Positions 20,137 to 26,559 of a DNA stretch of 64,000 nucleotides are shown in pieces. The stretch lies in the NCBI RefSeq assembly GCF_041248615.1, contig NZ_CP158426.1. One strand, 5' to 3'. The notes under the pieces are model-generated. The model had not been told where the DNA came from and made no database searches. It worked only from the letters and a program-made list of their open reading frames with translations. The stretch comes from Escherichia coli (GTDB taxonomy: Bacteria; Pseudomonadota; Gammaproteobacteria; Enterobacterales; Enterobacteriaceae). Position numbers and translations under genes: made by a program. Numbering within the stretch: the first letter of the stretch is position 1; every line of letters starts with the position of its first letter.

Positions 20137-21009
20137 TCAGAAGAAAATCCAGTTCCATACCGCGCGGGCAACAGAGACCACGGTGTCACGGACGGCACGC
20201 AGAACCGTACGAGCCACAGAGGCAACACAGACGCTCTCCGCCGTGTCAAATATCCGGTCCACCGCACCGGTAAACTGTTCACGGGCCTGCCCCCGGACAG
20301 ATTCCGTGCACAGCTCGTCCTGCAGGCGGGTCATCAGGGGACTGGCGGCATGGTCGGGAAGTGCTGTCATGAGCGCACTGACCAGCGTATCCAGTTCCCA
20401 GCCGGTGCGGGCCGATACGGCCACAACCGGATGTACGGGCCGGAACAGCCGGAATACCGCATCTGTTTTCTCACGAATGTTCTGTTCCTGTGCGGGAGAA
20501 GGCTGAATACCTGCCATATCCCATTCATGGCAGGGCTCCGTTTTGTCGGCCTGCGTCACCACAAACAGCACCTGCTGATGTCCCCGGTGCAGGATGTGTC
20601 GCCAGAAATAGTCATCCACAGACAGGGCCCGGTCATCGGCTTTAATCAGCCACAGTACCAGGTCAAGTTCAGGCAGAATGTCACGGTACAGGGCTTCATA
20701 CTCTGCATCCCTGTCCCGGCTCTCGCCCACCCCGGGCAGGTCAGTGATAACCATGCTGTGACCATGGCCACTCAGACGGAAGCGCTGCACTTCCCGGGTG
20801 CCGGCGTGAACATCACTGACCGGGGTGACCTCCCCCTGAAACAGTGCATTACAGAGTGAGGATTTACCGGCCCCGCTTTTTCCCATAATGCCAATCACGG
20901 GTTCGTGGCTGGTGAGTTTGCGCAGATGTTCCAGGATGTGACGGGAAAGTGAGTAAGGCAGGGAGGAGAGCGGTTTTTCAATTGCCTCAATGGCATCAGA
21001 CGGATTCAT
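20137..21009 (-). CDS. YeeP/YkfA-family GTPase
   Basis: P-loop GKSGAGKSS; start trimmed to internal Met, alternative start at 21072; position upstream of agn43 as in CP4-44. Confidence 0.75.
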   Translation of the reverse strand: MNPSDAIEAIEKPLSSLPYSLSRHILEHLRKLTSHEPVIGIMGKSGAGKSSLCNALFQGEVTPVSDVHAGTREVQRFRLSGHGHSMVITDLPGVGESRDRDAEYEALYRDILPELDLVLWLIKADDRALSVDDYFWRHILHRGHQQVLFVVTQADKTEPCHEWDMAGIQPSPAQEQNIREKTDAVFRLFRPVHPVVAVSARTGWELDTLVSALMTALPDHAASPLMTRLQDELCTESVRGQAREQFTGAVDRIFDTAESVCVASVARTVLRAVRDTVVSVARAVWNWIFF

Positions 21010-21238
21010 ACATGTATTCCCGGTGAAAAAAGACAAAACCCCGCGCACCGGAAAGGTGGCGGGGGGATTCACGGAGATAATATCTGCCTGAAATTATTTG
21101 GAATGCAGGTATATGTGGCTGATTTGTATCAGCTAATGAGTACAGGTCTGAATCTAATCTGACAGTCCGCTCTGTGCCAGGAGCGGACATTGTTTTCCAA
21201 CTATTACCTAAGCCTGCGAACCATCTCATCTTCACCCC

Positions 21239-22126
21239 TTAAATTCTCAATGTATCGATAACCGCTCGTAGGGCGGGTGACACATTGCGGTGCGGATAAT
21301 AGATATATGAACCCTCCAGGCGTTGGCTGTAGCATTGCAAAACTCTGATTAGCGCCCCCTGTTCTATATCATCAGACACTAATTCCTCCGGAACATAAGC
21401 CAGCCCCAGACCTAGCCTTGCGGCTTTGGCTTCCATATAACTGTCAGCAAAGGCCCATTGTCCCTGAGGCTGATGGGTGATCTTTTTACCGTCCTGATTG
21501 AGTTCCCAGGCATACAGACTGCCGTCGCCGAACTGGTAAGCGATGCAGGGATGACCTACTAAATCGGTGGGGGTTTGTGGAAATCCGTAGCGCTGAAAGT
21601 GCCCGGGCGTGCCGACAACAGCCATCTCCATATCGGGCGAAATGCGCACCGCAACCATACCGCTATCCACTTCCGAGCCCAGACGTATACCGGCATCGAA
21701 GCGCTCAGTAATAATATCGACAAACCGGCTTTCGCTGATGAGCTCCAGCCGAATATCCGGGTATCGTTGTTTAAACACCGCCAGCTTCGGCAGCAGCACT
21801 TTATCAATGGCGTGCTGGCTCGCATTAATTCGGACCGTACCCGATGGTGTATGGCGATAATGGGCCAGCGTGGCAAGCCCCATATCTAAGGCGTCAAATC
21901 CAGATTCGACGTTTCGATAGAGTAACTCGCCGGCATGGGTGAGCGATAACTTGCGCGTGGTGCGTACCAGAAGCTGCACGCCCAGTCGCTCTTCCAGCTC
22001 GCGCACTGCACGGCTAATTCCTGACTGCGCCAGGCCAAGCCTCTGCGCGGCGGCGGTAAAACTCCCTTCTCGCACGACCTGCATAAACAGATAGAGATCG
22101 TTATAGTTTTCCCGTTTCGCCATCAT
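21239..22126 (-). CDS. LysR-family transcriptional regulator
   Basis: N-terminal HTH (FTAAAQRLGLAQSGISRAVRELE) and LysR substrate-binding domain; divergent from the hydrolase/MFS pair. Confidence 0.85.
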   Translation of the reverse strand: MMAKRENYNDLYLFMQVVREGSFTAAAQRLGLAQSGISRAVRELEERLGVQLLVRTTRKLSLTHAGELLYRNVESGFDALDMGLATLAHYRHTPSGTVRINASQHAIDKVLLPKLAVFKQRYPDIRLELISESRFVDIITERFDAGIRLGSEVDSGMVAVRISPDMEMAVVGTPGHFQRYGFPQTPTDLVGHPCIAYQFGDGSLYAWELNQDGKKITHQPQGQWAFADSYMEAKAARLGLGLAYVPEELVSDDIEQGALIRVLQCYSQRLEGSYIYYPHRNVSPALRAVIDTLRI

Positions 22127-22293
22127 CCTTCCCCTGCTGCATCACAATTCAGAACAATATGTTATTAATCTTAGCATTTTTTACCCTCTAATTAGCACTA
22201 TTAATGCTAACTATAATGTGCGCGTTGCAACAAAGCACAGCAGTGTTATCCGTATGAAACCAGTATCTGGCACATTTTATGAGGGGGATTTTG

Positions 22294-23430
22294 ATGACTG
22301 CTTTCACCCAAAAATTGACAGCCGCGATATCCACCATGCTGTTATGCGTATCATTAAGTGGAGTCACAAATATGAGTTACGCTGATACAACCAATCCGAA
22401 CGCGCCCGTTTCGCAGGTCGAGAAATGGGATAAAACTTTTGCTGAGAGCACGAAAGTTGATCACCGTAAGGTGACCTTTCCGAACCGGTACGGGATCACC
22501 TTAGTCGGGGATCTCTATATACCGAAGGATCGTGGCGATCGCAAGATGGCAGCAATTGCTGTTAGTGGCCCCTTCGGGGCGGTGAAAGAGCAATCCAGTG
22601 GCCTGTATGCGCAGACGCTGGCTGAACGGGGGTTTGTCACTCTGGCTTTTGACCCTTCATACACGGGGGAAAGCGGCGGCTACCCGCGAAACGTCGCATC
22701 TCCGGATATCAACACCGAGGATTTCAGCGCGGCGGTTGATTTCTTAGGCCTGCAAAAAGAGGTGGATCGCAACCGTATCGGGTTGCTCGGCATCTGCGGA
22801 TGGGGTGGCATGGCCTTAAACGACGCCGCGATGGACACACGTGTCAAGGCGGTGGCGAGCAGCGTGATGTATGACATGAGCCGTGCAATGGGGCATGGCG
22901 TGGGCGATGGCAAAGACCGCTATACCACTGCCGATCGTCGTGCCGTATTGCAGTATTTGAACATGCAGCGCTGGAAGGATGCTGAAAATGGCGCTTTCGC
23001 GCCAGGCGGGCATGATATTTACGTTGATGAGAAGGGCAACGTCACCGCTTCCGATCGTATTTTACCGGAAACTTTGCCAGCGAATTCTAATCCGGTATTG
23101 AAAGAGTTCTTTGATTATTACCGCATGCCGCGTGGTTTCCATGCGCGTTCGGTCAACTCAACCAGTGCCTGGAATGCAACCATGCCGCTGTCATTTATGA
23201 ATATGCCGCTGCTGAGTTACGCTAATGAAGTTACTATCCCTACACTCATCGTGACCGGTGAAAAAGCCCATTCACGCTATTTTGCTGAAGATGCCTTTAA
23301 GGCAATCGGCAGCAAAGAGAAAGAGTTAGTGATTGTCCCCGAGGCAAACCATGTTGATCTGTACGACAACGTTGCGGGTAAGATCCCATTTGCCAAATTT
23401 GAGCAATTTTTCAAGGCAAACTTAAGATAA
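22294..23430 (+). CDS. secreted alpha/beta-hydrolase-fold protein
   Basis: Signal-peptide-like N-terminus and hydrolase-like core; start chosen at ATG preceded by GAGGGGG SD, alternative at 22279. Confidence 0.65.
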   Translation: MTAFTQKLTAAISTMLLCVSLSGVTNMSYADTTNPNAPVSQVEKWDKTFAESTKVDHRKVTFPNRYGITLVGDLYIPKDRGDRKMAAIAVSGPFGAVKEQSSGLYAQTLAERGFVTLAFDPSYTGESGGYPRNVASPDINTEDFSAAVDFLGLQKEVDRNRIGLLGICGWGGMALNDAAMDTRVKAVASSVMYDMSRAMGHGVGDGKDRYTTADRRAVLQYLNMQRWKDAENGAFAPGGHDIYVDEKGNVTASDRILPETLPANSNPVLKEFFDYYRMPRGFHARSVNSTSAWNATMPLSFMNMPLLSYANEVTIPTLIVTGEKAHSRYFAEDAFKAIGSKEKELVIVPEANHVDLYDNVAGKIPFAKFEQFFKANLR

Positions 23431-23606
23431 CCCGAAAGGTTTACCAGGCCACCTGTCGTAAACGGGTGGCTTTTAACTGCCTGGTGTGATGCAGAATATG
23501 CCGCATCTCCCTATATTCTCACCCAACTATTATGTCGTTATTCCCTGAATAACTTCTGACCCGATTGCGCTTGAATCTGGCTGGTTCGATATTAAGGGGG
23601 CTAATA

Positions 23607-24800
23607 ATGTCCACTGTAAGTCTCAAACAATTATACGGAAAAACGCATGCATACTGGAGCGGCGTATTCGCCATGACGCTTTGCGTGTTTGTGCTGATCG
23701 CTTCTGAGTTTATGCCAGTCAGCCTGCTTACGCTCATTGCCCATGATTTGCACGTTACCGAAGGGCTGGCAGGGCAAGGAATTGCTGTCTCTGGTGCGCT
23801 GGCGGTGCTTACCAGTCTGACTATCTCCCGTATTACCGGAGACCTGAATCGAAAATATCTTCTGCTGGGGCTGACGGCCTTAATGGCCATATCGGGAATA
23901 GTTATCACCATAGCACCTGACTATCCGGTTTATATGCTGGGGAGGGCCCTGATTGGTATCGTCATTGGAGGGTTCTGGTCAATGTCGGCTGCAACCGCCA
24001 TTCGGCTCGTGCCGAAGCAGCATGTCCCCCGCGCACTGGCAATTTTTAACGGCGGAAACGCACTGGCCACCGTTGTGGCAGCGCCACTTGGTAGCTATCT
24101 GGGGACAACCATCGGCTGGCGTGGGGCCTTTTTATGTCTGGTCCCCCTTGCGATAGCTGCGTTCATCTGGCAATGGGTCAGTCTGCCTCCGATGGAAAGT
24201 GATAAAACACAAAAGCTACAGAGATCTGTGCTTCGCCTGTTCAGCGTTGCCATCGTACCAACGGGACTGCTGGCCTGCGGACTCTTCTTTATGGGACAGT
24301 TTGCTTTATTTACCTACGTGCGCCCCTTTCTGGAGAGCGTCACCAGAGTGGGACCTTCTGATCTTTCTCTGATTTTGCTCGCAATAGGTGTAGCAGGTTT
24401 TGTCGGCACAATGATCGTCTCAACATTCCTGAACACCATATTTTATAAGACCTTAATAATGATCCCGTTGCTTATGGCAGCGATTACCGGTGCGTTACTG
24501 CTGGTCGGACACCATATCTGGGCTGTTGCCGTTTTACTCAGCCTGTGGGGGCTACTTGCGACAGCTGCGCCAACGGGGTGGTGGACATGGATAGCACGCG
24601 CGTTACCCGAAGATGCAGAGACGGGGGGAGGCCTCATGGTTGCAGTGATTCAGTTATCTATTGCACTTGGTTCAACGGCTGGAGGTCTGGTATTCGACAG
24701 TCTGGGATGGAGAAGTGCTTTTGGTTTAAGTGGTTTGTTACTTCTGGGAGCGGTAGCGATGACATGTGCCACATCCCGTCAAAACAGGAAGGCGCAGTAG
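23607..24800 (+). CDS. MFS transporter
   Basis: About 12 predicted hydrophobic segments; start at ATG preceded by AAGGGGG SD. Confidence 0.8.
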   Translation: MSTVSLKQLYGKTHAYWSGVFAMTLCVFVLIASEFMPVSLLTLIAHDLHVTEGLAGQGIAVSGALAVLTSLTISRITGDLNRKYLLLGLTALMAISGIVITIAPDYPVYMLGRALIGIVIGGFWSMSAATAIRLVPKQHVPRALAIFNGGNALATVVAAPLGSYLGTTIGWRGAFLCLVPLAIAAFIWQWVSLPPMESDKTQKLQRSVLRLFSVAIVPTGLLACGLFFMGQFALFTYVRPFLESVTRVGPSDLSLILLAIGVAGFVGTMIVSTFLNTIFYKTLIMIPLLMAAITGALLLVGHHIWAVAVLLSLWGLLATAAPTGWWTWIARALPEDAETGGGLMVAVIQLSIALGSTAGGLVFDSLGWRSAFGLSGLLLLGAVAMTCATSRQNRKAQ

Positions 24801-26559
24801 CGCAATCCTTTTATTTCTGGCGTACGCTCTTTAAGGCATCCGGCTGAGAGGCTAATGATCACTCCTCGCTCACAACGGACCTTCAGCTCAGCCGCTCCGG
24901 CCGCTTCATGCCATGAATGTACGCAGCCAGTCAGAATATTAAGGTGCGGATTTCAGTTCACTTGTCAGCCCAGTGATACAGGACAGTAATGACCAACAAT
25001 TTGGTATTGATACAACAAGTTGCGGCCCCGGTTCGTGGGGGAGATGAAACGACGGTAGCTGAAGTTACTGAAATGAAGAATTCAGAGAGACTGAATGATA
25101 TGCCTCACCTTTAGTGAATAGTGTAAAAACGGGAGACTCTCACCCGAGATTATCCACTCATGCTCAATGTATAATTTTCGTGCCCCTCACAGGTAAGAGC
25201 CGGATGCATTCGTTGTGTACGTTGCAGAATTGGTAACCGGGGACCCTGCAGTCTTTAACTCCGAGTCTTGTGCTGCTCATTTGCCACAAAATCCTGGTAC
25301 GCCAGCTCAATCATTTCATTCAACAGTTTTTTTGGGGGGCACCACGACTTCGGGCAATACTTTCAGGCTGTTTGTGGATTTTTCCGGACAGTTTCAGCGG
25401 AACGGAACCATCAGCACGTTCATCACGCCTTTTTTGTTGCTCCCGGGCACTTTTCAGTTCATCCACAATATAGCTGCTCTTCTCGCATTTTTGCCGATTT
25501 TAAAAATGCGAACAAAACATCCGTACATGATGTACAGATTAAACTGCCAGGGACTGGTGTCAGAAAGCCTCCGGTTAGCCTGCTCTTTCCGGAATGTGCC
25601 GGTTATGAAAAACCGGAAATTCAGTCTCTGTTGTAAGATGTACCCTCTGATACTACGTTTTCGTTTTCTCTGTGTATTTAACTCACTGTATTTATTGTCT
25701 TTTTAAGCCTGACTGATATTCTCCGGTCATAGTGTGCCGGATAGACATCCCGTAACCTTCTCATTTTTATATAAAAATACCTGCACTGTCTTCAGCGCAT
25801 CTGTCTCCTTTAAGTAAAAAATGTTTTCACGTATTGCTGTAAATTCATTTTAAATCAGTATGTTATCCTGATATTGCTGTCTCCTGGTTTGATGCGTAAT
25901 CGTTCTGCCTTTCTGGATGATTCTGGTGCTTCCGGGTGCATTCTCCTCTGCACATGCAACAGTTCGTCATCGCCACGTGCCCAAAAAGCATATAAAAACG
26001 AATCGAATCTGATCGTTTTTTCAATCGTTTTTCACAGGAATTTCGTAGGGTGTTCTCCGCTATAGCCTCCATATTTGCTGTCTTTTTCTTCATAAATCGT
26101 ATGCAATATAACCAGTCTGTCAAGACATCTTCCCTGCTGTTGAGGTGACGATCTCATTTCTGGTCTTTTCCGGGAGAGAGACGGTCAGATGAGCGAGCCG
26201 GATTTACTGCCAGAGGTACTCCCCGCGGCAGAAAATAGTGCTCCTGTTTCCGCAATCCGGGATCGGCAACGTCCCATGGTTAATGCCACTTGCAGCGTCA
26301 GGCACTGCAGGTTTACGTCGTGATCTGATTTCTTCTGCACTTATCCCGATCACGGAAGTTCCCCCTGCGCAGACATCGGTTCCTGCCGACATCTCACAAT
26401 ACCGCCAGGCTGTCATGCAGTAACACCCGCAATGCGGTCTGCGGTTTTAAGCGCACTCTCCTGTTTTCAGTGCACCGATAAGCGTTATAGAAAGTCTGGG
26501 GTGAGTTACTGAATGTCTGTTAAGTGGTGCCGTGGGTGGAGACTGCTTACTTTTCCACA

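What the first reader, a model, noticed from the sequence alone, without database searches (positions are those of the whole stretch)
21239..24800. LysR regulator divergent from a secreted hydrolase and MFS transporter: metabolic cargo inside the island
Classic divergent LysR/target arrangement sitting between the Ag43 module and the decayed region. The substrate is unknown.
Basis: partly seen in the sequence, partly recalled or inferred. Interest (0 to 1): 0.25.

Follow-up and report, generated by a model that had tools for sequence, protein, structure and literature searches.

The report
LysR-controlled periplasmic hydrolase plus efflux-type transporter
A real, intact three-gene cassette (a LysR regulator, an exported cysteine-type hydrolase and an OpdE/NepI-like transporter) was acquired horizontally into a variable slot of an E. 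coli tRNA-Phe-associated island; its anatomy is ordinary and its substrate is still unknown.

Summary
Window 21239-24800 contains exactly three intact genes. They are a LysR regulator (21239-22123, -), a divergent signal-peptide alpha/beta hydrolase (22294-23430, +) and an MFS transporter (23607-24800, +).

The cassette is accessory: it occurs in 102 of 5426 complete E. coli genomes. In 98 of them it has the same junctions, between a YeeP-like GTPase with Ag43 and a decayed region. UPEC F11 carries a different 1.7 kb cargo in the same slot. The nearest DNA relative is a Kosakonia plasmid (93.8%). E. coli's own second version, next to paoD in 912 genomes, is only about 78% identical.

The hydrolase is 59-62% identical to P. 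aeruginosa PA2218 (PDB 2HDW) and 33% identical to E. coli YcjY. Its G-x-C-x-x-G cysteine is invariant, and no substrate is known for either relative. The regulator is 40% identical to PgrR, which sits divergent from ycjY in K-12. The transporter is 61% identical to the MFS next to PA2218 (opdE) and 37% identical to the exporter NepI.

Linkage of hydrolase, MFS and LysR recurs with shuffled gene order across Proteobacteria. All three genes are under purifying selection.

My best reading is an inducible envelope detoxification unit, with export plus periplasmic hydrolysis of an ester, lactone or thioester. "Metabolic" is unproven. This is a new member of a known kind and of low interest.

The parts
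21193..24861 (.). Cassette segment: the stretch that is absent from the collinear island backbone of UPEC F11, which carries 1714 bp of other cargo here
   Evidence: blastn of the window against F11 locus L084. Homology runs to 21192 on the left and resumes at 24862 on the right. No direct or inverted terminal repeats of 8 nt or more are present at the edges.
21239..22123 (-). LysR-type transcriptional regulator, 294 aa (the mechanical ORF extends to 22126)
   Evidence: Pfam HTH_1 84 bits and LysR_substrate 125 bits. It is 40% identical over its full length to K-12 PgrR/YcjZ and 43% identical to the LysR divergent from the PA2218 operon. The best NCBIfam equivalog, YafC, scores 197 against a cut-off of 470. 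dN/dS is 0.05-0.07.
22124..22293 (.). Divergent control region, 170 bp
   Evidence: An alignment of 13 diverged enterobacterial copies shows conserved blocks in an otherwise variable spacer. Inverted repeats are ATTAATCTTAGCATT / AATGCTAACTATAAT and TAATTAGCACTA / TAATGCTAACTA.
22147..22176 (.). Conserved block A (ATTyAkAACAAT..TAT.AATCTTAGCA), a candidate LysR recognition site
   Evidence: Conserved in 13 of 13 copies. It forms one arm of inverted repeat I1. Binding is inferred and was not tested.
22184..22217 (+). Conserved block B (CCCTCTAATyAG ... TGCT..CTATAAT). It includes a TATAAT -10 hexamer at 22212-22217 and a poor -35 (TAATTA), making it a candidate activator-dependent hydrolase promoter
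   Evidence: plus direct reading of the sequence. The consensus scan did not call a promoter here because the -35 is weak.
22294..23430 (+). Exported alpha/beta hydrolase of the PA2218/YcjY family, 378 aa (the mechanical ORF starts at 22279)
22294..22383 (+). Predicted Sec signal peptide (30 aa, cleavage after SYA)
   Evidence: Read from the sequence. The AF2 model is disordered over ORF residues 1-36. Homologues have Sec signals, twin-arginine signals (alphaproteobacteria) or no signal (Firmicutes, an archaeon) at the same place. No dedicated signal-peptide predictor was available.
22795..22797 (+). Codon of the nucleophile cysteine (C173 of the 383-aa ORF, C168 of the 378-aa protein) in G-I-C-G-W-G-G. 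It is the only cysteine in the mature protein
   Evidence: Invariant in 28 of 28 homologues from many phyla. It follows strand E162-172 of the model, the nucleophile-elbow position. Cysteine count.
23260..23262 (+). Codon of E328, the candidate catalytic acid after strand beta7
   Evidence: E in 26 and D in 2 of 28 homologues. It lies just after strand E322-327. The catalytic role is inferred. YcjY has S at this position.
23350..23352 (+). Codon of H358, the candidate catalytic histidine in N-H-V-D-L-Y-D
   Evidence: Invariant in 28 of 28 homologues. It lies after the last strand, E348-353.
23446..23474 (+). G+C-rich hairpin followed by TTTT between hydrolase and MFS: a terminator or attenuator-like element
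   Evidence: RNA fold gives an 11-bp stem with z = -2.66. A hairpin followed by a run of U (short or interrupted in some copies) is present at this place in all 10 enterobacterial versions, with different stem sequences. In the short-spacer versions about 30 nt or fewer remain before the MFS start. The consensus scan missed it because there are only 4 T.
23607..24800 (+). MFS transporter of the OpdE/NepI type, 397 aa (the mechanical ORF starts at 23565)
   Evidence: Pfam MFS_1 136 bits. It is 61% identical to the 402-aa MFS next to PA2218 and 37% identical to K-12 NepI. NCBIfam NepI scores 275 against a cut-off of 584. A crude hydropathy scan finds at least 11 hydrophobic segments, and dN/dS is 0.08-0.15.

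Best explanation
This is a self-contained, horizontally acquired three-gene unit.

Shown:
- A LysR-type regulator is transcribed divergently from an exported alpha/beta hydrolase of the PA2218/YcjY family. The hydrolase uses a cysteine in the nucleophile elbow.
- A conserved hairpin follows the hydrolase gene, and then comes an OpdE/NepI-type MFS transporter.
- All three genes are intact and under purifying selection.
- They sit in a variable cargo slot of a tRNA-Phe-associated island.

Inferred mechanism:
- The regulator binds the conserved dyad blocks that overlap the weak -35 of the hydrolase promoter.
- When it senses a cytoplasmic small molecule, it activates transcription. The hairpin lets a fraction of transcripts read through into the transporter gene, which sets high hydrolase and low pump levels.
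- The pump is a proton-antiport exporter like its named relatives. It expels the compound into the periplasm.
- There the cysteine hydrolase cleaves an ester, lactone or thioester bond so the compound cannot re-enter. Judging from the nearest characterised folds, the substrate is most plausibly an aromatic or otherwise activated ester.

In short, I read it as an inducible two-layer envelope detoxification unit, not a catabolic pathway. The substrate is not identified.
For: Anatomy.

Unit boundaries coincide with the three genes. Homology to the O157-type copy starts at the LysR stop and ends at the MFS stop. The insert relative to F11 is 21193-24861.

Accessory status and single origin: 102 of 5426 genomes carry it, 98 with both junctions, and the 60 copies listed are at least 99.9% identical. 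The nearest relative is a Kosakonia plasmid at 93.8% DNA identity, against about 78% for E. coli's own paoD-linked copy.

Functional coupling:
- A LysR lies within 2.5 kb of the hydrolase in 30 of the scanned loci. An MFS closer to this one than NepI is (44-82% against 37%) lies alongside in about 16.
- Gene order differs between lineages: LysR<>hydrolase-MFS in Enterobacterales, Psychrobacter and Luteimonas; LysR/MFS-hydrolase in Sphingomonas, Novosphingobium, Bosea, Brevundimonas and P. aeruginosa; opposite strand in Acinetobacter.

Purifying selection: dN/dS is 0.05-0.15 for all three genes.

Hydrolase chemistry:
- C173 and H358 are invariant, and position 328 is always acidic.

Periplasmic location: Sec signal here, Tat signals in alphaproteobacteria.

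Exporter relatives: NepI, SotB-like and Cmx/CmrA.

Regulatory signals: conserved operator blocks with a good -10 and a poor -35, and a conserved hairpin with co-varying stems.

The paralogous K-12 pair pgrR<>ycjY is an experimentally documented LysR/hydrolase regulatory pair (PMC5934670).

Detoxification-type neighbours in other taxa: aldo/keto reductase, SDR, CMD-cupin, flavodoxin and cyclophilin-like genes.
Against: - No substrate, inducer or transport direction has been measured for this cassette or for PA2218, YcjY or OpdE.
- MFS transport direction cannot be read from 37% identity.
- PgrR, the nearest studied regulator, is a repressor and not an activator.
- In Firmicutes and an archaeon the hydrolase lacks a signal peptide and has no MFS partner, so export plus periplasmic cleavage cannot be the family's universal mode.
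- The hairpin has only four T and may stabilise the mRNA end instead of terminating transcription.
- The lid region of the model is of moderate confidence (pLDDT 69-75), so nothing can be said about the binding pocket.
- The only phenotype on record for the orthologous transporter is that opdE disruption raises imipenem resistance (Huang 1992, as cited in PMC12690498). A simple detoxification model does not obviously explain this.
Confidence: 0.45

Rival explanations
1. Nutrient scavenging. The periplasmic hydrolase releases a usable acid or alcohol from an ester, for example a plant phenolic ester. The MFS imports the product, the LysR regulator senses it, and core metabolism does the rest.
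For: - Feruloyl-esterase-like and PET46-like structural neighbours.
- The family is abundant on plasmids of plant-associated Pantoea, Sinorhizobium and Rhizobium.
- Elsewhere the island carries pectin/oligogalacturonate utilisation genes.
- A periplasmic enzyme upstream of an inner-membrane transporter is a common uptake logic.
Against: - No catabolic genes are in the unit in any lineage examined.
- All named relatives of the transporter are exporters.
- Neighbours in other phyla are reductases and redox genes, not pathway enzymes.
Confidence: 0.25
2. Cell-wall peptide turnover. This would be a periplasmic counterpart of the K-12 PgrR-YcjY module that belongs to the peptidoglycan-recycling regulon. 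The hydrolase would act as a peptidase on murein peptides and the MFS would move the products.
For: - The regulator is 40% identical to PgrR and the hydrolase 33% identical to YcjY, in the same divergent layout.
- PgrR controls ycjY-ymjDC-mpaA and ycjG (PMC5934670).
- In K. pneumoniae the cassette lies about 1.7 kb from the tpx-ycjG-mpaA-mppA cluster.
- Weak Peptidase_S9/S15-type Pfam hits.
- Periplasmic single-cysteine enzymes are known in murein metabolism (own knowledge).
Against: - YcjY's own activity is unknown, and its link to peptidoglycan rests on operon membership only.
- The MFS resembles NepI/OpdE, not the muropeptide permease AmpG.
- No murein genes accompany the cassette in E. coli, Kosakonia, P. 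aeruginosa or alphaproteobacteria.
- The family also occurs in an archaeon (Methanobacterium).
Confidence: 0.1
3. Quorum quenching: a periplasmic N-acyl-homoserine lactonase of the dienelactone-hydrolase type.
For: The best NCBIfam hit of the hydrolase is the UilS lactonase model (E 2e-18). UilS is a dienelactone-hydrolase-annotated AHL lactonase (PMC11633161). Dienelactone-hydrolase-type structures are among the structural neighbours.
Against: The score is 67 bits against a cut-off of 400 and covers only residues 78-198, the shared core. UilS is a 31.5 kDa cytoplasmic protein. Neither the cassette nor its neighbourhoods contain quorum-sensing genes.
Confidence: 0.05
4. Three unrelated neighbours, or decaying cargo with no current function.
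For: It lies next to a region of pseudogenes. A terminator-like hairpin separates the hydrolase from the MFS.
Against: - All three ORFs are intact, with dN/dS 0.05-0.15.
- The homology boundaries coincide with the trio.
- Linkage is conserved across classes with shuffled gene order.
- The operator blocks are conserved.
Confidence: 0.03

Closest known systems
Pseudomonas aeruginosa PA2220 (LysR) - PA2219 (opdE, MFS) - PA2218 (hydrolase, PDB 2HDW)
   Same: The same three protein families are linked in one locus. The hydrolase is 59-62% identical with the same G-I-C-G-W-G-G motif. The MFS is 61% identical and the LysR 43% identical. The regulator is divergent from the other two genes.
   Different: The gene order is LysR<>MFS-hydrolase instead of LysR<>hydrolase-MFS. 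PA2218 has a lipobox-like LVGC where this protein has a Sec/SPase I type signal. It also lacks the roughly 17-residue lid insertion seen here. Calling the 402-aa MFS 'opdE' rests on locus-tag adjacency, not on a sequence labelled as such. No substrate is known. The only phenotype is that opdE disruption raises imipenem resistance.
E. coli K-12 pgrR (ycjZ) <> ycjY (PDB 5XB6)
   Same: A divergent LysR/hydrolase pair built from the same two families. The regulator is 40% identical and the hydrolase 33% identical, and the cysteine in the nucleophile elbow (G-I-C-A-G-A-G) is kept. Regulation of ycjY by PgrR is documented (PMC5934670).
   Different: YcjY has no signal peptide and no MFS partner, and it is co-transcribed with mpaA. 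PgrR is a repressor. YcjY has S where this family has the acidic residue 328. The identities are too low for orthology.
E. coli O157:H7-type cassette next to paoD/ykgR
   Same: The same three genes in the same order, with the same operator blocks and the same inter-gene hairpin.
   Different: Amino-acid identity is only 83/89/71% and DNA identity about 78%. It sits at a fixed chromosomal site in 912 of 5426 genomes. Some strains (U1, Nord1, OU701452) carry both versions. The K-12 yagP fragment at that site is not a remnant of it (29% identity).
NepI (YicM), purine ribonucleoside exporter of E. coli K-12
   Same: An MFS transporter of nearly identical length, 37% identical over its full length. 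It is the best NCBIfam hit.
   Different: The score of 275 is far below the equivalog cut-off of 584, so substrate cannot be transferred.
Dienelactone hydrolases, feruloyl esterases and PKS-type thioesterases (DcsB, GrgF, PET46, LbFAE, Est1E)
   Different: Sequence identity is only 17-22%. Whether the listed esterases and thioesterases use serine was not checked here. The Pfam DLH score (21.6) is at the cut-off (21) and no single stretch passes.

Membership tests
LysR-type transcriptional regulators | N-terminal HTH_1 domain plus C-terminal LysR substrate-binding domain | tested here: met
   PF00126 scores 84 bits (cut-off 26.6) and PF03466 scores 125 bits (cut-off 28).
LysR-type transcriptional regulators | Divergent transcription from a target gene, with a shared operator in the spacer | tested here: met
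   A 170-bp spacer with dyad blocks conserved in 13 diverged copies. Actual binding was not tested.
LysR-type transcriptional regulators | Ligand-dependent control of the target promoter | not testable with these tools
   Needs reporter or binding assays.
PgrR (YcjZ) orthologue | Orthologue-level sequence identity and the ycjY-mpaA context | tested here: not met
   40% identity, a different context, and no NCBIfam equivalog cut-off reached (best is YafC, 197 against 470).
PA2218/YcjY-type alpha/beta hydrolases | Alpha/beta hydrolase fold with lid, close to 2HDW and 5XB6 | tested here: met
PA2218/YcjY-type alpha/beta hydrolases | Cysteine in the nucleophile elbow (G-x-C-x-x-G) and a C-terminal histidine | tested here: met
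   C173 and H358 are invariant in 28 of 28 homologues. PA2218 and YcjY have the same cysteine.
PA2218/YcjY-type alpha/beta hydrolases | Hydrolytic activity that depends on that cysteine | not testable with these tools
   I found no biochemical data for any member.
Dienelactone hydrolase (Pfam PF01738) | Score above the Pfam gathering threshold | tested here: inconclusive
   21.6 bits against a cut-off of 21, E 1.8e-4, with no single stretch passing.
UilS-type AHL lactonase (NF047920) | Score above the NCBIfam cut-off over the whole model | tested here: not met
   67 bits against 400, covering model positions 14-131 of 285 only.
Major facilitator superfamily | MFS_1 domain and about 12 membrane spans | tested here: met
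   PF07690 scores 136 bits. A crude hydropathy scan finds at least 11 hydrophobic segments.
NepI equivalog (purine ribonucleoside exporter) | NCBIfam equivalog cut-off | tested here: not met
   275 bits against 584. 37% identity.
OpdE (PA2219) orthologue | High identity plus conserved linkage to a PA2218-type hydrolase and a LysR gene | tested here: met
   61% identity over 388 residues, with the same neighbours. The name opdE for that gene is taken and locus-tag order.
Genomic-island cargo | Patchy distribution, and a collinear backbone without the genes | tested here: met
   102 of 5426 genomes. F11 has the same flanks with other cargo. tRNA-Phe lies at 43752-43827 and mobile-element genes surround the cassette.
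Genomic-island cargo | Foreign origin of the segment | tested here: met
   93.8% DNA identity to a Kosakonia plasmid, against about 78% to the E. coli paoD-linked copy. G+C content is unremarkable.
Anti-phage defence system | Match to a PADLOC model | tested here: not met
   No PADLOC hit for any of the three proteins.

The most novel reading that the evidence does not exclude
The PA2218-type periplasmic cysteine hydrolase and the OpdE-type MFS may form a dedicated two-part module that is still functionally unassigned and that moves between plasmids, islands and chromosomes across Proteobacteria. The hydrolase is 50-60% identical even in Bacteroidota, Firmicutes and a methanogen. Such a module would act on one specific, widespread small molecule. 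As hinted by the old opdE/OprD observation, its activity could feed back on outer-membrane permeability and so on carbapenem susceptibility in the E. coli lineages that carry one or two copies.
Probability: 0.12. Interest if true: 0.5.

Novelty: new member of a known kind. Interest (0 to 1): 0.2.

Why it matters
As found, it matters little. It is one more regulator-enzyme-transporter cassette among island cargo, and public annotation already names all three genes generically.

Its modest value is as a pointer:
- It links two structurally solved but functionally orphan proteins (PA2218/2HDW and YcjY/5XB6), the old P. aeruginosa gene opdE and the K-12 PgrR regulon into one family of LysR-controlled modules.
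- It shows that the hydrolase-MFS-LysR linkage is conserved and mobile.

Finding the inducer would assign a function to a hydrolase family of thousands of members (at least 8000 proteins at E <= 1e-30, the search's scoring cap). It could also explain why opdE affects imipenem resistance.

Tried and rejected
- K-12 yagP as a remnant of the paoD-linked LysR: rejected. It is only 29% identical over the C-terminal part.
- A known RNA element (riboswitch or sRNA) in the conserved leader or spacers: none found. The only Rfam hit, NsiR4 at E 0.38 and 20 bits against a cut-off of 40, lies on the hairpin and is a chance match.
- A defence-system role for the cassette: no PADLOC hits.
- Transposon or integron-like insertion: no terminal direct or inverted repeats of 8 nt or more at 21193 and 24861, and no transposase within the unit. 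Replacement by recombination in the shared flanks is the simpler reading.
- Compositional anomaly: G+C is 0.48-0.53 across the cassette, like its surroundings.
- The simple promoter/terminator scan found nothing in the control region or between the genes. The signals reported here come from comparative alignment instead.
- Literature searches for PA2218, YcjY, opdE, PgrR, yagP and UilS gave no substrate for any family member.
- Source names for close homologues are generic: 'alpha/beta hydrolase', 'FrsA (DUF1100)', 'Peptidase_S15'.
- The catalytic acid could not be confirmed, because model coordinates could not be inspected.

Full report
**1. Observation**

The ORF list shows three long ORFs exactly at the coordinates given: 21239..22126 (-), 22279..23430 (+) and 23565..24800 (+).

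Pfam assigns HTH_1 plus LysR_substrate to the first, alpha/beta-hydrolase models to the second and MFS_1 to the third.

The window is Escherichia coli. Positions 21100-24900 are 100% identical to strain D8, where RefSeq annotates 'LysR family transcriptional regulator', 'alpha/beta hydrolase' and 'MFS transporter'.

Comparison of 13 diverged copies puts the true starts at 22123, 22294 and 23607, as in RefSeq.

To the left lie an Ag43/Cah autotransporter and a YeeP-like GTPase. To the right lie frameshifted and partial genes. The description is therefore correct.

**2. Is it island cargo?**

- The full cassette is present in 102 of 5426 complete E. coli genomes.
- With a 6.1-kb query spanning both junctions, 98 genomes have the same arrangement, and the 60 copies listed are at least 99.9% identical. 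That pattern fits one acquisition followed by spread of that island module.
- UPEC F11 has the same backbone (about 96% identical) up to window 21192 and again from 24862. Between these points it carries 1714 bp with a DUF2971 gene and a hypothetical gene. The DUF2971 protein matches the PADLOC candidate defence family PDC-S31. The cassette thus occupies a variable cargo slot, window 21193-24861.
- No terminal repeats flank it and its G+C content is unremarkable.
- A tRNA-Phe gene lies at 43752-43827. The neighbourhood is full of island genes: kps, CbtA/CbeA, antirestriction, pap and pgt.

**3. Relatives of the cassette as a whole**

- A second version lies next to paoD/ykgR in O157:H7 and, in all, 912 of 5426 genomes. 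It has 83/89/71% amino-acid identity for regulator, hydrolase and transporter.
- Homology between the two versions begins at the LysR stop codon and ends at the MFS stop codon, so the trio is the unit.
- Some strains carry both versions.
- The island copy is much closer to a Kosakonia cowanii plasmid (93.8% DNA identity over the whole length). Further versions are in Pantoea, Klebsiella, Salmonella, Leclercia and Enterobacter.
- Synonymous divergence far exceeds non-synonymous divergence in all three genes (dN/dS 0.05-0.15), so the genes are maintained by selection.
- The K-12 fragment yagP is not a remnant of this regulator.

**4. The hydrolase**

- It matches two solved but functionally orphan proteins: P. 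aeruginosa PA2218 (2HDW, E 2e-121) and E. coli YcjY (5XB6, E 1.5e-40).
- In 28 homologues from Proteobacteria, Bacteroidota, Firmicutes, Campylobacterota, Melainabacteria-like lineages and a Methanobacterium MAG, identity to the query is 55-90%. C173 (G-I-C-G-W-G-G) and H358 are invariant, and position 328 after strand beta7 is always E or D.
- C173 is the only cysteine in the mature protein.
- The N-terminus is a Sec-type signal here. It is a twin-arginine signal in alphaproteobacteria and is absent in Firmicutes and the archaeon.
- The NCBIfam hit to the AHL lactonase UilS is partial and far below cut-off (67 against 400).
- Source names are generic, and literature searches found no substrate.

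**5. The regulator**

- It is 40% identical over its full length to K-12 PgrR (YcjZ).
- In K-12, pgrR lies divergent from ycjY and controls ycjY-ymjDC-mpaA (PMC5934670).
- The LysR/hydrolase pair in the window is therefore an old paralogue of the pgrR<>ycjY pair, not an orthologue. No NCBIfam equivalog cut-off is reached.
- The 170-bp spacer contains blocks conserved in all 13 enterobacterial versions. These are ATTyAkAACAAT..TAT.AATCTTAGCA (22147-22176) and CCCTCTAATyAG...TGCT..CTATAAT (22184-22217). The second ends in a perfect TATAAT with a poor -35, and the blocks form inverted repeats.
- This is the usual layout of an activator-dependent LysR target promoter. Binding and the sign of regulation are inferred.

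**6. The transporter**

- It is 37% identical to the exporter NepI. Its other named relatives are also efflux proteins.
- Next to PA2218 in P. aeruginosa lies a 402-aa MFS that is 61% identical to it, and a divergent LysR that is 43% identical.
- By locus-tag order, that MFS is PA2219 (opdE). Its disruption was reported to raise imipenem resistance (Huang 1992, as cited in PMC12690498).

**7. Are the three genes functionally coupled?**

- Among 80 species-representative loci holding the hydrolase, a LysR gene lies within 2.5 kb in about 30. An MFS closer to this one than NepI is lies within 2.5 kb in about 16, all of them Proteobacteria.
- Gene order differs between lineages. That argues for selection on the linkage and against inheritance of a frozen block.
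- Between hydrolase and MFS, every enterobacterial version has a G+C-rich hairpin followed by a run of U (short or interrupted in some copies), with different stem sequences. In the short-spacer versions there is no room for a separate promoter. I infer partial termination that sets a high hydrolase to pump ratio.
- In other phyla the hydrolase travels with cyclophilin-like proteins, CMD-cupin fusions, hexapeptide acetyltransferases, aldo/keto reductases, SDRs, flavodoxins and AraC regulators. This set is typical of small-molecule stress or detoxification clusters, not of catabolic pathways.

**8. Interpretation**

The most likely reading (about 0.45) is an inducible envelope detoxification unit:
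- the LysR protein senses a cytoplasmic compound;
- the pump expels it;
- the periplasmic cysteine hydrolase cleaves an ester, lactone or thioester bond.

The main rival (about 0.25) is scavenging, that is hydrolysis outside followed by import. A PgrR-like role in murein peptide turnover (about 0.1) and AHL quenching (about 0.05) are weaker. Chance neighbours or decay is essentially excluded. No Rfam element or defence model matches.

**9. Verdict**

It is a new member of a known kind, a LysR-controlled enzyme plus transporter module with close relatives in P. aeruginosa (PA2218-2220) and a distant paralogue in K-12 (pgrR/ycjY). Interest is low. The one useful lead is that it ties two orphan crystal structures, opdE and PgrR into a single mobile module family whose ligand remains to be found.

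Noticed in passing
L084 (E. coli F11) 6206-6880, the slot equivalent to window 21193-24861: In F11 the same slot downstream of the YeeP-like GTPase holds a DUF2971 protein that matches the PADLOC candidate defence family PDC-S31 (E 1e-81), plus a 196-aa protein with no family. The slot therefore looks like an exchangeable cargo position in CP4-type island modules.
   Followed up: partly
window 22220-22268: The leader downstream of the hydrolase -10 (GCGCATTGCAACAAAGCACAGCAGCGTTGTCCGTATGAAACCTGT) is conserved across most of the 13 enterobacterial copies, although it is non-coding. It could hold the lysR promoter on the other strand or another binding site. There is no Rfam match.
   Followed up: partly
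window 43752-43827 and surroundings: The single tRNA-Phe gene sits in mid-window with accessory-looking genes on both sides. On one side are kps, a CP4-like module and oligogalacturonate genes. On the other are DeoR-rbsK-fucP, pgtPCBA and the pap operon. No integrase is annotated next to the tRNA in strain D8.
   Followed up: no
L002 9058-10203 (O157:H7 F6321): RefSeq starts the O157-type hydrolase at MSYAD (352 aa), which removes the signal peptide. The upstream signal-peptide coding sequence and its ATG are nevertheless intact and conserved. This is probably a start-site annotation error that hides the export signal.
   Followed up: partly
L086 (K. pneumoniae 19PDR22 'plasmid p2', linear 221 kb): The K. 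pneumoniae version of the cassette lies about 1.7 kb from tpx-ycjG-mpaA-mppA, the neighbourhood where K-12 has ycjY-pgrR, and is followed by an aldo/keto reductase. The record looks like a chromosomal fragment filed as a plasmid.
   Followed up: no
(for example NZ_CP041359.1 U1, NZ_CP139953.1 Nord1, NZ_OU701452.1): Some E. coli genomes carry both the island version and the paoD-linked version of the cassette. With ycjY/pgrR, which was not checked in these strains, that would make up to three paralogous LysR/hydrolase pairs per genome.
   Followed up: partly
window 20137-21009 (-): The YeeP-like GTPase next to the cassette gives weak PADLOC hits to LeoBC/LeoA dynamin-like models (E 5e-8 and 6e-4) besides the generic MMR_HSR1 and Dynamin_N Pfam domains.
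   Followed up: no
L004-L083, for example L073 Methanobacterium sp. UBA44 and L065 Sedimentibacter: The hydrolase family keeps 50-60% identity between E. coli, Bacteroides, Clostridia, Campylobacterota and an archaeal MAG. That is unusually high for an uncharacterised enzyme and suggests frequent inter-phylum transfer, a very constrained function, or both.
   Followed up: partly
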